A DNA stretch of 64,000 bases, from the IMG/VR virus record IMGVR_UViG_3300031647_000750, positions 25 through 64,024 of that record. One strand, 5' to 3'. Below, piece by piece: positions 23,811-25,026 of the stretch. Source of the stretch: a virus (taxonomy: Duplodnaviria > Heunggongvirae > Uroviricota > Caudoviricetes). The position numbers and the translations under genes are program-made. The notes beneath the pieces were generated by a model, which saw only the letters and a program-made list of their open reading frames with translations, made no database searches and had not been told where the DNA came from. Every line of letters begins with the position of its first letter. Position 1 is the stretch's first letter.

Positions 23811-23861
23811 TGAACAACATATCTTGGTTCAAGGAACAACATAATAATGTAATCACATAAA

Positions 23862-23922
23862 CATTGCTTCGCAATGAACAACTTCAAAAAATATCTCATT
23901 CGTTACACTCATTCGTATTTTT
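23862..23922 (-). other. Pair of GNA-triloop hairpins (candidate ssDNA signal; the distal one may be a terminator)
   Basis: Minus strand AAAAATA-C-GA-AT-GA-GT-GTA-AC-GA-AT-GA-G-a-TATTTTT and CATTGC-GAA-GCAATG followed by TTTATGT. Confidence 0.5.
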
Positions 23923-23969
23923 CTTATTGTTATACTCTTTAATCTAATTGTTTCTAACTGTTATTACTA

Positions 23970-24525
23970 TATATCAATGATTGGGCTATTCTATAACTAC
24001 TATCTATTTTTCCAGGATCTTGATCCACACTTCGCTTATGCAGCGAAAGTGAAAAATTTGTTAAATGAACAGAAAGTTTTTTCCTATCACCCAATCACAC
24101 TTCGATATAACAAACCCAATTTTACACTTGGGGGAGGCGGTTACGCGGTACCTCTTATTACATGCTGCTTCAAGCAACGCAAGAACATCAATTTCCATAT
24201 CGTCGGATTTTGACTACTCGTAGGTTTCAATAGTTCAGAAGAGCCTACTCTTTTCGGTTGGTCAGACCAGTGCAATGACCAAAAGAAACACGTGGAAGTC
24301 CATCGACATCGCCCCAAAGGCGGCAGATTCATCACGGATACGGTAACAGTATCATCCATCTAAGTTTTATAGGGTTCTGAGGGGGTTTGCCAATGCGAGG
24401 TGATTAAGTTTTTAGTTTAAGTGCTGAGGACAGCGAAGTGATTGAGTTTTTTAGTTTAGAGGTTTGTTTAAGTTTTTAGTTTAAGTGTGTTTGTTTAAGT
24501 TTTTAGTTTAAGTGTGTTTGTTTAT
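23970..24525 (-). ncRNA. Candidate large structured non-coding RNA (about 550 nt, possibly up to about 670 nt)
   Basis: Own consensus promoter, no credible ORF, core visibly more GC-rich than the flanks, at least 8 helices including a long-range closing helix. Confidence 0.6.
24406..24524. repeat. 27-bp tandem repeat plus dispersed AAACTAAAAACTT copies
   Basis: aagtttttagtttaagtgtgtttgttt at 24470 and 24497; core also at 24406, with a variant at 24444. Confidence 0.9.
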
Positions 24526-24531
24526 GTAATA

Positions 24532-24559
24532 ATTATACATGATTCTCAGTGATTGTCAA
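24532..24559 (-). promoter_or_regulatory. Consensus sigma70 promoter pointing into the non-coding locus
   Basis: TTGACA(24559-24554)-N16-TATAAT(24537-24532). Confidence 0.8.
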
Positions 24560-24567
24560 GTATAATT

Positions 24568-25026
24568 TTATAAGCCCGAGGATTTAGTTTCTTGTAGGTA
24601 TTCTTTAAGAACTTTTGATCCGCCTACTCTAACGTTAATGATTCCATTGTAGTAATCATCTGTTTCAAGTACTCTGCGTTCAAACTGTTCGCGTGCTTCT
24701 AGGTAACTTGCAATGCCCCTTGTAGGACACATATGAATAATTTCTCTTGTGAAACTATCTTTACCTAGTGCTTCAACGTCTGCATTAAGTCTATCACTAG
24801 AGCCGAAATATTCTCTCCAGTCACTTTCTTTAGTGCCACGTCTCTTATTCTTTTTTCCCTTTAGTGGTGGTTTAGTAGTTTTAAACTTTGCTAATTTTTT
24901 ACCTATATATAACATACCACTAACAGTATTTGTTATCAGATACACAAATGCTTCACACCCATCCGGCAATGCTTCTATAACATTACCTTCGTATGTCCAG
25001 TCATATGTAATTTTATTTTTTTCCAC
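24568..25026 (-). CDS. GIY-YIG family endonuclease (catalytic domain only, Seg-like)
   Basis: AFVYLITN...YIGKK, YFGSS, FTREII, LEAREQ, YYNG; GTG start. Confidence 0.85.
   Translation of the reverse strand: MEKNKITYDWTYEGNVIEALPDGCEAFVYLITNTVSGMLYIGKKLAKFKTTKPPLKGKKNKRRGTKESDWREYFGSSDRLNADVEALGKDSFTREIIHMCPTRGIASYLEAREQFERRVLETDDYYNGIINVRVGGSKVLKEYLQETKSSGL

What the first reader, a model, noticed from the sequence alone, without database searches (positions are those of the whole stretch)
23820..25026. Candidate undescribed system: promoter, ~550-nt structured RNA, AT-rich tract and ssDNA hairpins behind a GIY-YIG nuclease (RNA-primed origin or ncRNA-nuclease module)
Seen, reading the minus strand in order: GIY-YIG stop (24568); TTGACA-N16-TATAAT; a G-free repeat leader; about 400 nt of dense helices closing at 23970; an AT-rich tract (23923-23969); two GNA-loop hairpins. 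This is by far the largest non-coding gap in the window. Established: ColE1 replicons use a sigma70-driven 555-nt folded RNA II that forms an R-loop primer, with a primosome assembly site downstream on the displaced, RNA-sense strand. T4 origins are a promoter plus a DNA-unwinding element that form R-loops. Inference: this locus has the same order and polarity, so it may be an RNA-primed phage origin, located beside the gp46/47 recombination genes. An alternative is a large ncRNA that partners the domain-only GIY-YIG protein. Caveat: I see no long G-run like the one that anchors ColE1 RNA II.
Basis: partly seen in the sequence, partly recalled or inferred. Interest (0 to 1): 0.9.

Follow-up and report, generated by a model that had tools for sequence, protein, structure and literature searches.

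The report
Twin-box phage RNA, Polynucleobacter-1 relative
The 786-base gene-free gap behind the small nuclease gene of this uncultured giant phage is a real folded RNA gene with its own promoter and terminator, a divergent member of a widespread, largely uncatalogued phage RNA family, and not a replication origin as far as the evidence goes; what the RNA does is unknown.

Summary
The gap holds a non-coding RNA gene on the minus strand: a perfect sigma-70 promoter (24559-24532), a G-poor repeat leader, a conserved core of about 275 nt (24277-24004), an AU-rich linker, a G/A-rich hairpin and a terminator hairpin (23876-23862).

Single-sequence folding is no better than chance. Comparison of 29 divergent relatives nevertheless shows strong compensatory change, including a long-range helix that crosses another helix (a predicted pseudoknot).

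The window gives no Rfam hit. Its core is homologous to the uncatalogued 3' two-thirds of RNAs whose 5' third is Rfam Polynucleobacter-1 (RF01718, function unknown).

The core carries the family hallmark. One 7-nt word, GGAAAAA, occurs twice at equivalent places. The word differs between relatives, but its two copies stay identical.

A small nuclease gene precedes 72 of 74 distinct RNA copies (GIY-YIG 67, PD-(D/E)XK 5). The RNA also occurs without one, and the nuclease occurs without the RNA.

Nothing specifically supports an RNA-primed origin. The "ssDNA hairpins" read better as the RNA's 3' tail and terminator.

This scan had already met the same RNA family on other DNA (19 notes, at least 17 genomes).

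The parts
24568..25026 (-). Domain-only GIY-YIG nuclease gene (152 aa), directly upstream of the RNA gene
   Evidence: Pfam PF19835 SegE_GIY-YIG 1.5e-32. PHROG 447 1.8e-36. AlphaFold model pLDDT 89; best PDB fold is the I-TevI catalytic domain. Present after gp46 in all 80 gp46-related loci.
24532..24559 (-). Sigma-70-type promoter TTGACA-N16-TATAAT; predicted start near 24525
   Evidence: 12/12 match. A -35/-10 pair at the same place with other spacer sequences in L009, L015, L016/L022/L025 and in close relatives.
24365..24524 (-). G-poor A/C-rich leader built of ACUUAAAC(U/A)AAAA-type repeats; lineage-specific
   Evidence: 27-nt units at 24489-24515 and 24462-24488 (100%) and 24398-24424 (81%). 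Unit number varies among close relatives. Other promoter-bearing relatives have A/C-rich leaders of different sequence.
24283..24364 (-). 5' region of the RNA, poorly conserved; takes the place of the RF01718 domain of other family members
   Evidence: No RF01718 match in the window or the whole 192-kb record even at E<=10. Aligns only with near relatives.
24004..24277 (-). Conserved structured core of the RNA
   Evidence: nhmmer profile match over 272 positions. Covariation statistics on 29 sequences.
24220..24248 (-). Helix H1 (GUAGG...CCUAC) with an inner 3-bp helix
   Evidence: 100% and 96.6% of cells paired; 6 of 8 pairs changed on both sides.
24183..24219 (-). Helix P2, whose loop holds the 5' strand of the long-range helix
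   Evidence: 7 of 7 pairs changed on both sides; 76.9% of cells paired.
24195..24202 (-). Long-range helix, 5' strand (CGAUAUGG); crosses P2, so a pseudoknot as drawn
   Evidence: An 8-11-bp helix in 29/29 sequences, in at least 11 sequence versions.
24103..24110 (-). Long-range helix, 3' strand (UUAUAUCG), directly 5' of the first AAGUGUGA
24165..24182 (-). Hairpin H3 (UUGC...GCAG)
   Evidence: 79% of cells paired; mostly invariant.
24134..24154 (-). Hairpin H4 with the family's most conserved word, GGUACCGCGUAACCGCC
   Evidence: 99.3% of cells paired; 3 pairs changed on both sides. The word is shared with RF01718-bearing relatives.
24115..24132 (-). Variable hairpin H5
   Evidence: Compensatory changes in A2.
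24095..24102 (-). First AAGUGUGA motif (module 1)
24078..24084 (-). Twin box 1, GGAAAAA
24028..24051 (-). Hairpin H6 (CACUUUCGC...GCGAAGUG), ending in the second AAGUGUG motif (module 2)
   Evidence: Conserved in type-W and core-group RNAs, with compensatory changes.
24007..24013 (-). Twin box 2, GGAAAAA, 71 nt after box 1
   Evidence: The identical word lies at a near-constant offset (10-14 nt) within the segment after the GUGUG motif in 25 of 29 relatives, although the word differs between lineages.
23923..24003 (-).
   Evidence: Not conserved beyond close relatives and L009.
23886..23922 (-). G/A-rich hairpin T1 (AAAAAUA-CGAAUGAG-UGUAA-CGAAUGAG-AUAUUUUUU)
   Evidence: Read from the sequence. 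It resembles the GCUUC-GAGCG...GCGAA-GAAGC element near the 3' end of core-group RNAs. This is inference.
23862..23876 (-). Hairpin T2, CAUUGC-GAA-GCAAUG followed by UUUAU: likely intrinsic terminator of the RNA
   Evidence: Terminator-like site. Core-group RNAs also end in a hairpin.
23803..23810 (-). TATAAATA, a T4-type late-promoter word ahead of the next gene (not part of the RNA)
   Evidence: Read from the sequence. The same word is in L009. That it is a late promoter is from my own knowledge of T4.
23293..23781 (-). Downstream 162-aa gene of unknown function (not part of the RNA)
   Evidence: No Pfam family; PHROG 10325 7.6e-7. The downstream neighbour differs in other lineages.

Best explanation
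The gap is a stand-alone non-coding RNA gene. Host sigma-70 polymerase would start near 24525, transcribe an unstructured G-poor leader and a lineage-specific 5' region, and then the conserved core of about 275 nt (24277-24004). Transcription would end at the hairpin 23876-23862, giving roughly 660-670 nt.

The core is homologous to the uncatalogued 3' part of the 'extended Polynucleobacter-1' RNAs of aquatic T4-like and giant phages.

It folds into a predicted pseudoknotted multi-helix scaffold with two similar modules. Each module is a helix, then (A)AGUGUG(A), then about 10-13 nt, then the word. Both modules display the same 7-nt word, GGAAAAA.

Shown here: the RNA is homologous to that family, its helices are under selection, and the two words stay identical while changing between lineages.

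Inferred: it works in trans as a scaffold that offers two equivalent recognition sites to one partner. That partner could be two copies of, or two sites on, a nucleic acid, or a dimeric protein. I infer that it is not a replication primer, not a leader of the next gene, and not an obligate subunit of the neighbouring nuclease. The partner is unknown.
For: - Gap conservation: 86-96% identity in close relatives, and 71% over 175 nt where gp46 is only 65% identical.
- Covariation: 49 predicted pairs, 23 of them compensatory, on 10 sequences. On 29 sequences 0 of 500 shuffles reached the observed values.
- Long-range helix present in 29/29 sequences.
- Family link: the window-type profile matches L102 and L128 at 2.5e-15 and 1.2e-17, directly 3' of RF01718 hits of 85.6 and 90.6 bits. 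It also matches L026, L080 and L036 (1.8e-5 to 3e-4). The converse profile hits L024 at 7e-7 and L016/L022 at about 1e-4.
- Twin words: identical runs of 7 nt or more in 21/29 sequences and 6 nt or more in 25/29, at a near-constant offset, against 4.9% in cross-pairings. About 20 different words were seen across the two alignments.
- Own promoter, conserved in place, and a terminator-like hairpin.
- The downstream gene varies between lineages, and TATAAATA precedes it here.
Against:
- The single-sequence fold is not better than chance.
- The window gives no direct Rfam hit, and the core-group profile matches it only at E = 2.8, so homology rests on intermediates.
- No partner for the twin words was found. 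None lies inside the RNA or at a conserved place in seven phage contig fragments.
- The near-constant neighbourhood of a small nuclease gene (72 of 74) is not explained by a purely independent RNA.
Confidence: 0.6

Rival explanations
1. The RNA is a cofactor of the small nuclease encoded just upstream. It could act as a guide, an activator, or an inhibitor or antitoxin. The twin words would then position or regulate a dimeric domain-only enzyme.
For: - Of 74 distinct RNA copies with enough upstream sequence, 67 follow a GIY-YIG gene and 5 follow an unrelated PD-(D/E)XK nuclease (PF24608, 1e-22 to 3e-26) in the same slot.
- The GIY-YIG protein lacks a DNA-binding tail.
- Weinberg 2010 already noted the link to an upstream gene family (PMC2864571).
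Against: - The RNA occurs without any nuclease upstream, in L178 and in the bacterial island L214.
- Other ORFs are inserted between the nuclease and the RNA in L030 and L055.
- Nuclease homologues at 44-66% identity in cultured phages (Melnitz, phiN3, Variovorax phage) have no such RNA nearby.
- L009 keeps the RNA and nearly the same word, but its GIY-YIG is only 39% identical and 190 aa long.
- The words differ between phages whose nucleases are about equally similar to the window's (69-71%).
- The sample is biased, because 80 loci were fetched through gp46.
Confidence: 0.15
2. The RNA is a decoy or sponge in phage-host conflict. The two identical single-stranded words would mimic the short recognition sequence of a host factor that differs between hosts, for example a sequence-specific endoribonuclease toxin or a small RNA.
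For: - The words change fast between closely related RNAs, always in both copies.
- No phage-encoded complement was found.
- In a Methylococcaceae MAG the RNA lies on an integrase-bounded island beside a MazF-like toxin and a TIR effector.
- The promoter type suggests early expression by host polymerase (inference).
Against: The island is a single case. No host is known, so no target could be tested. The words keep a partly fixed skeleton (N-G-N-N-R-A-N), which could equally reflect a structural motif.
Confidence: 0.12
3. One reading: an RNA-primed replication origin. The promoter-driven folded transcript would form an R-loop at the AT-rich tract, with primosome-loading hairpins on the displaced strand.
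For: The order promoter, folded RNA, AT-rich tract, hairpins is present. The locus lies beside recombination genes gp46/47. The cumulative GC-skew minimum of the contig is nearby, at about 28 kb.
Against: - The promoter, AT-rich tract and hairpins are the least conserved parts, while the intricate core and twin words are the conserved parts.
- The hairpins fit a 3' tail plus terminator.
- The skew minimum coincides with the switch of gene orientation at the gp47 start, 4 kb from the RNA.
- No antisense promoter lies inside the RNA.
- The family also occurs on a bacterial island and in other phage contexts.
Confidence: 0.04
4. The RNA is a cis-acting untranslated region: a 3' element of the nuclease mRNA, or a long 5' leader that controls the 162-aa gene.
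For: In the distant relatives aligned in A1 the conserved RNA sequence begins within about 30 nt of the nuclease stop codon, with no TTGAC found nearby. Weinberg 2010 tentatively marked the motif as possibly cis-regulatory.
Against: - Here the RNA has its own promoter and a terminator-like hairpin.
- The downstream gene differs between lineages and can lie on the other strand.
- TATAAATA precedes the 162-aa gene.
- A conserved, apparently pseudoknotted fold of 275 nt or more is far larger than the 3' UTR elements I know of in bacteria (my own knowledge).
Confidence: 0.06

Closest known systems
Polynucleobacter-1 RNA motif (Rfam RF01718; Weinberg et al. 2010, Genome Biol 11:R31, PMC2864571)
   Same: Same genomic slot, downstream of the small GIY-YIG-type gene that Weinberg called family GOS11034. 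RNAs with a bona fide RF01718 5' domain continue into a core that the window-type profile recognises at about 1e-15 to 1e-17. Function is unknown in both.
   Different: RF01718 models only the first 141 nt. The window has no detectable RF01718 domain and instead has its own promoter, an A/C-rich repeat leader and another 5' region. The shared part (long-range helix, GGUAC...ACCGCC hairpin, two GUGUGA modules, twin words) gave no other Rfam 15 match at E<=5 in the nine relatives searched that way.
Large 'ornate' bacterial and phage RNAs of unknown function (GOLLD, ROOL, HEARO, raiA)
   Same: A large, apparently complex fold, found in phages and mobile elements of aquatic or uncultured microbes, with no known function.
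   Different: No Rfam match to any of them. The family is smaller (about 275-470 nt). The twin identical co-varying words are, as far as I know, not a feature of those families (my own knowledge, not tested here).
ColE1 RNA II primer / T4 oriF-oriG R-loop origins
   Same: The order promoter, folded RNA, AT-rich DNA. Seven-nucleotide recognition words recall the 7-nt kissing loops of RNA I/RNA II (my own knowledge).
   Different: No antisense promoter, no G-run anchor, origin-like parts not conserved, RNA core conserved in unrelated contexts. No replication evidence.
Type III toxin-antitoxin RNAs (ToxI-type) and other RNA inhibitors of nucleases
   Same: A non-coding RNA gene beside a small nuclease gene; repeated short words.
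   Different: The RNA lies downstream, not upstream, of the nuclease gene. It is a single complex fold, not a tandem array of 34-36-nt units. The nuclease is a DNA-type GIY-YIG or PD-(D/E)XK fold. The RNA and the nuclease each occur without the other.

Membership tests
Rfam RF01718 Polynucleobacter-1 | Covariance-model score at or above the gathering score (37 bits) | tested here: not met
   No hit in the window at gathering, none at E<=10 in 23600-24800, none in the whole 192-kb record at E<=10. Relatives score 76-111 bits.
Rfam RF01718 Polynucleobacter-1 | Lies downstream of the small phage-type gene family noted by Weinberg 2010 (GOS11034) | tested here: met
   It directly follows the GIY-YIG gene. 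The same holds for RF01718 hits. That GOS11034 is this GIY-YIG family is my inference.
Extended Polynucleobacter-1 / twin-box phage RNA (uncatalogued; defined by this scan) | Sequence-profile homology of the core to RNAs that carry RF01718 at their 5' end | tested here: met
   The A2 core profile matches the window at 3.3e-84 (it is a member of the profile) and L102/L128 at 2.5e-15 / 1.2e-17, with RF01718 adjacent. The link from the core-group profile to the window is only transitive.
Extended Polynucleobacter-1 / twin-box phage RNA (uncatalogued; defined by this scan) | Hairpin with GGUAC(C/A)G...(A/G)ACCGCC | tested here: met
   24154-24134; 99.3% of cells paired, with compensatory changes at its base.
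Extended Polynucleobacter-1 / twin-box phage RNA (uncatalogued; defined by this scan) | Two modules of helix + (A)AGUGUG(A) + spacer, the first closed by a long-range helix | tested here: met
   24202-24195 pairs with 24110-24103, followed by AAGUGUGA at 24102-24095. H6 at 24051-24028 ends in AAGUGUG.
Extended Polynucleobacter-1 / twin-box phage RNA (uncatalogued; defined by this scan) | Two identical words of about 7 nt at equivalent places, differing between lineages | tested here: met
   GGAAAAA at 24084-24078 and 24013-24007. 21/29 relatives have identical runs of 7 nt or more, against 4.9% of cross-pairs.
ColE1-type RNA II primer origin | G-rich run in the RNA that anchors the R-loop; antisense RNA I promoter; origin about 555 nt downstream of the promoter | tested here: not met
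The promoter scan found no antisense promoter within the RNA. Origin activity itself cannot be tested with these tools.
T4-type R-loop origin (promoter plus DNA-unwinding element) | Conserved AT-rich unwinding element downstream of the promoter; replication start | tested here: inconclusive
   An AT-rich tract is present but not conserved beyond close relatives. The GC-skew minimum is 4 kb away and is explained by gene orientation. Replication cannot be tested here.
Group I intron carrying a GIY-YIG homing endonuclease | Match to the intron model and split flanking exons | tested here: not met
   No Rfam hit. gp46 is complete, the nuclease ORF starts at or next to its stop, and the downstream gene varies.
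tRNA / tmRNA / RNase P RNA / T-box leader | Detection by ARAGORN or the Rfam models | tested here: not met
   ARAGORN found none in the window, and there were no Rfam hits. By-eye resemblances (GAGGAUAGUCC; GGUACCGCG) were leads from memory only.

The most novel reading that the evidence does not exclude
The twin words are a programmable recognition element. Both copies would base-pair with the same short sequence of a nucleic-acid target, so the scaffold would be a natural two-site guide or clamp. Its specificity would be reset by paired mutations. It might direct or restrain the neighbouring minimal nuclease (GIY-YIG or PD-(D/E)XK) or the gp46/47 exonuclease, or neutralise a host RNA.
Probability: 0.1. 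Interest if true: 0.9.

Novelty: new variant of a known kind. Interest (0 to 1): 0.6.

Why it matters
Conserved bacterial or phage RNAs of several hundred nucleotides with pseudoknots are rare, and those understood so far are mostly ribozymes or machines. This family appears in more than 100 uncultured phage contigs fetched here. Rfam holds only its first 141 nt, and nothing is known of its function.

The window adds three things:
- It is a variant that has lost or replaced the catalogued domain but keeps the core, which shows where the essential part lies.
- It has a clean promoter-to-terminator unit, which argues for a free-standing RNA.
- It gives independent confirmation, in a second subfamily, that the two short words must stay identical while they drift. 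As far as I know that constraint has no described precedent, and it makes a concrete experiment possible: change one box, or both.

It is not an undescribed kind of system, and no evidence points to a replication origin.

Tried and rejected
- Rfam at gathering and at E<=10 gave nothing credible in the window.
- blastn of the gap and tblastn of the 162-aa protein against 50,697 cultured-phage records gave no match.
- ARAGORN found no tRNA or tmRNA in the window.
- A protein-coding reading of the 72-aa (24359-24141) and 78-aa (23977-24213, + strand) ORFs was rejected. They are kept only in close relatives, and the region shows RNA-type compensatory change.
- By-eye resemblances to RNase P CR-I, the group I S element, C/D-box k-turns and the T-box core were dropped, because none has Rfam support.
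- The idea that the nuclease is T4 endonuclease II: no PDB sequence hit, and the best fold match is I-TevI, with prob 0.96 but E = 0.14.
- Reverse transcriptase as a reader of identical template-end words: none in the 192 kb held.
- A partner complementary to the words: no constant site within 600 nt either side, no complementary column in the core alignment, and no conserved exact 7-mer or 6-mer complement elsewhere in seven phage contig fragments. One two-genome coincidence did not extend, and the word's complement is not enriched in four relatives' records. The contigs are only 16-60% complete, so absence is weak.
- In some lineages, including the window (UUUUUC at 24056-24051), a nearby complement could pair with either box, but this is not general (sequences).
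- The GC-skew origin test was uninformative.
- RNAalifold on raw MAFFT alignments missed the long-range helix. Column-wise counts for it are only 66% because of register shifts, so I tested it per sequence instead.
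Full report
**What the window is.** The window is the first 64 kb of a 192-kb IMG/VR virus record, which CheckV estimates at 52% complete. 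On the minus strand it carries an Mre11-like gp47 (28034-27003), a Rad50-like gp46 (26999-25227), a 74-aa ORF and a 152-aa GIY-YIG protein (25026-24568; Pfam PF19835, 1.5e-32). A 786-nt ORF-free gap follows, then a 162-aa protein of no known family. The nearest cultured phages by gp46 are giant myoviruses (Phosso, PA5oct, Atu_ph07) at only 46-48% identity.

**Check of the observation.**
- The promoter is a 12/12 match with a 16-nt spacer at 24559-24532. The second hairpin (23876-23862, followed by TTTATGTGAT) scores as terminator-like.
- The leader holds two exact 27-nt units and further partial copies.
- The gap is the largest internal ORF-free stretch of the window.
- The single-sequence fold on which the "dense helices" rest is not better than shuffled sequence (z = -0.6 and -1.1). 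Structure therefore had to be tested by comparison.

**Relatives.**
- A gp46 search of IMG/VR gave 80 loci. All 80 carry the small GIY-YIG gene right after gp46.
- Most loci with enough downstream sequence then have 400-800 nt without a convincing ORF, whatever gene comes next.
- The window's gap is 86-96% identical in close relatives and 77% in L009. It is still 71% identical over 175 nt in phages whose gp46 is only 65% identical.
- In those phages the layout is the same: gp46, GIY-YIG, a TTGACA-N17-TATATT/TATAAT promoter overlapping the nuclease stop codon, an A-rich leader, the conserved block, then a homologue of the 162-aa gene.

**Link to a known family.**
- In the more distant loci the first ~141 nt after the nuclease gene are Rfam RF01718, the Polynucleobacter-1 motif, at 76-111 bits against a gathering score of 37.
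- Weinberg et al. 2010 described that motif from freshwater and estuarine metagenomes. They noted that it lies downstream of a gene family with a possible cyanophage homologue and that its 3' half is not always detected. They found it in no purified phage and assigned no function (PMC2864571).
- My alignment of 22 such loci shows that conservation runs on for about 420-470 nt, to a terminal hairpin.
- The window and its whole 192-kb record have no RF01718 match even at E<=10.
- A pattern scan plus an nhmmer profile of the window-type core found about 35 further loci. Two of them, L102 and L128, match the profile at 2.5e-15 and 1.2e-17 and have bona fide RF01718 domains (85.6 and 90.6 bits) directly 5' of the match.
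- The profile also reaches L026, L080 and L036. The converse profile reaches L024, L016 and L022.
- The window RNA therefore shares the core of the family but has a different 5' region. It is a relative, not a member, of RF01718.

**Structure.**
- On ten window-type sequences RNAalifold predicts 49 pairs, 23 of them with compensatory changes.
- On 29 sequences at 96% identity or less, a hand-curated set of 32 pairs is 83.6% paired against 70.7% in shuffles. Of the 32 pairs, 24 changed on both sides, 0 of 500 shuffles reached the observed values, and all slid controls are far lower.
- A long-range helix (window 24202-24195 with 24110-24103) is present as 8-11 bp in all 29 sequences, in at least 11 sequence versions. 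It crosses helix P2, so the fold as drawn is a pseudoknot.
- The core has two similar modules. Each is a helix, then (A)AGUGUG(A), then about 10-13 nt, then a short word.

**Twin words.**
- Earlier notes of this scan pointed to two identical 7-nt words in this family, so I tested it on my own sequences.
- In the window the word is GGAAAAA, at 24084-24078 and 24013-24007.
- Relatives have AGAAAAA, GGUGAAG, UGUGAAGU, UGUCAAG, UUGUAAA, GGGAAAU, AGGUAAU, GGCGAAAU, UGGUAAAGU, GGCAAGUU, AGGAUAAU, AGUCAAG, AGACAAG and others. The RF01718-bearing group has AGAUGAU, AGAUAAU, GAAUAAU, GGAUAAU, ACAUGAA and ACAUGAUG. In every case the word is the same in both modules.
- Identical runs of 7 nt or more occur in 21/29 sequences (6 nt or more in 25/29), at a near-constant offset after the GUGUG motif. 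Only 4.9% of cross-pairings between different sequences do so.
- The words keep a loose skeleton, N-G-N-N-R-A-N.
- I found no complementary partner. None sits at a constant place within 600 nt either side or in any column of the core alignment. None lies at a conserved place in the available parts of seven phage genomes that carry six different words. Those contigs are 16-60% complete, so this absence is weak evidence.

**Relation to the nuclease.**
- Of 74 distinct RNA copies with at least 900 nt of upstream sequence, 67 follow the GIY-YIG gene, 5 follow an unrelated PD-(D/E)XK nuclease (PF24608) in the same slot, and 2 follow neither.
- The link is therefore strong, and it survives a swap of nuclease fold. 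Several facts argue against an obligate pair:
  - the two nuclease-free copies, one on a phage contig (L178) and one on an integrase-bounded island of a Methylococcaceae MAG beside a MazF-like toxin and a TIR effector;
  - ORFs inserted between nuclease and RNA in L030 and L055;
  - nuclease homologues of 44-66% identity in cultured phages that have no such RNA nearby;
  - L009, where gp46 (87%) and the RNA are close to the window's but the GIY-YIG is only 39% identical and 190 aa long;
  - the RNA's own promoter.
- The nuclease model is confident (pLDDT 89), and its best solved relative is the I-TevI catalytic domain. It has no detectable sequence relative in the PDB.
- Since 80 of the loci were fetched through gp46, the 67/74 figure is biased upward.

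**Origin reading.**
- The conserved parts are the folded core and the twin words. The promoter and leader are confined to the window's subfamily. The AT-rich tract and the exact hairpins are confined to its close relatives.
- The first hairpin (23922-23886: a Watson-Crick clamp around two CGAAUGAG copies) resembles the GCUUC-GAGCG...GCGAA-GAAGC element near the 3' end of other family members. The second is a terminator-like hairpin, as at their ends. This resemblance is inference.
- TATAAATA at 23810-23803 and a Shine-Dalgarno sequence then serve the next gene.
- The contig's cumulative GC skew turns at about 28 kb, where leftward genes give way to rightward ones, not at the RNA.
- There is no antisense promoter inside the RNA and no reverse transcriptase in the record.
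- None of this disproves an origin, but nothing specific supports it.

**Verdict.** This is a real, free-standing structured RNA gene. It is a new variant (own promoter, repeat leader, replaced 5' domain) of the extended Polynucleobacter-1 or "twin-box" RNA family of aquatic T4-like and giant phages. This scan had already met the family on other DNA (19 notes in at least 17 genomes); my tests agree with those notes. My best mechanistic guess is a trans-acting scaffold that offers two equivalent, evolvable recognition words to one unknown partner. A role with the neighbouring nuclease, a decoy role in host conflict, a cis-regulatory role and an origin role follow in that order of likelihood.

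Noticed in passing
L177:10128-10643, L154:6634-7164 (-), L108:3565-4071; also L098, L127: In five relatives the slot between gp46 and the RNA holds a PD-(D/E)XK nuclease (PF24608, 1e-22 to 3e-26) instead of the GIY-YIG gene. This is a non-orthologous swap of small nucleases next to the same RNA.
   Followed up: partly
L214:6220-6513 and L221:9-113 (two contig ends of one Methylococcaceae MAG): The RNA family sits on what looks like an integrated island: a TIR-domain Pycsar/CAP12-type effector on one side, and a MazF-like toxin and a P4-type tyrosine integrase next to tpiA on the other.
   Followed up: partly
L009:3856-4425: A phage with gp46 87% identical to the window's, and nearly the same RNA, carries a much more distant and longer GIY-YIG protein (39% identity, 190 aa). 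This suggests replacement of the nuclease gene in place.
   Followed up: no
window 23803-23810: TATAAATA, the T4 late-promoter word, lies about 20 nt ahead of the AAGGAG ribosome site of the 162-aa gene and is kept in L009. That gene is probably late and independent of the RNA.
   Followed up: partly
window 24398-24524 versus L010, L011, L004, L007: The number of ACUUAAAC(U/A)AAAA-type leader repeats differs among phages that are about 93% identical in gp46. The -10 box is TATAAT here and TATACT in those relatives.
   Followed up: partly
L030:8609-9286 and L055:8701-9564: Extra ORFs are inserted between the GIY-YIG gene and the RNA. One has NUMOD3 motifs, which are typical of homing endonucleases.
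   Followed up: no
G000:C1:144263-150158 (outside the window): A cluster of 18 tRNA genes lies in the same virus record.
   Followed up: no
window 25013-25237: A 74-aa ORF between gp46 and the GIY-YIG gene overlaps both. It is kept at 57-65% identity in close relatives, has no family, and is absent where the nuclease gene abuts gp46 (L025).
   Followed up: no
window 24051-24056: UUUUUC, between the two GGAAAAA words, could pair with either of them, which would make a two-state switch. Similar nearby complements exist in L009, L024 and L112 but not in most lineages.
   Followed up: partly
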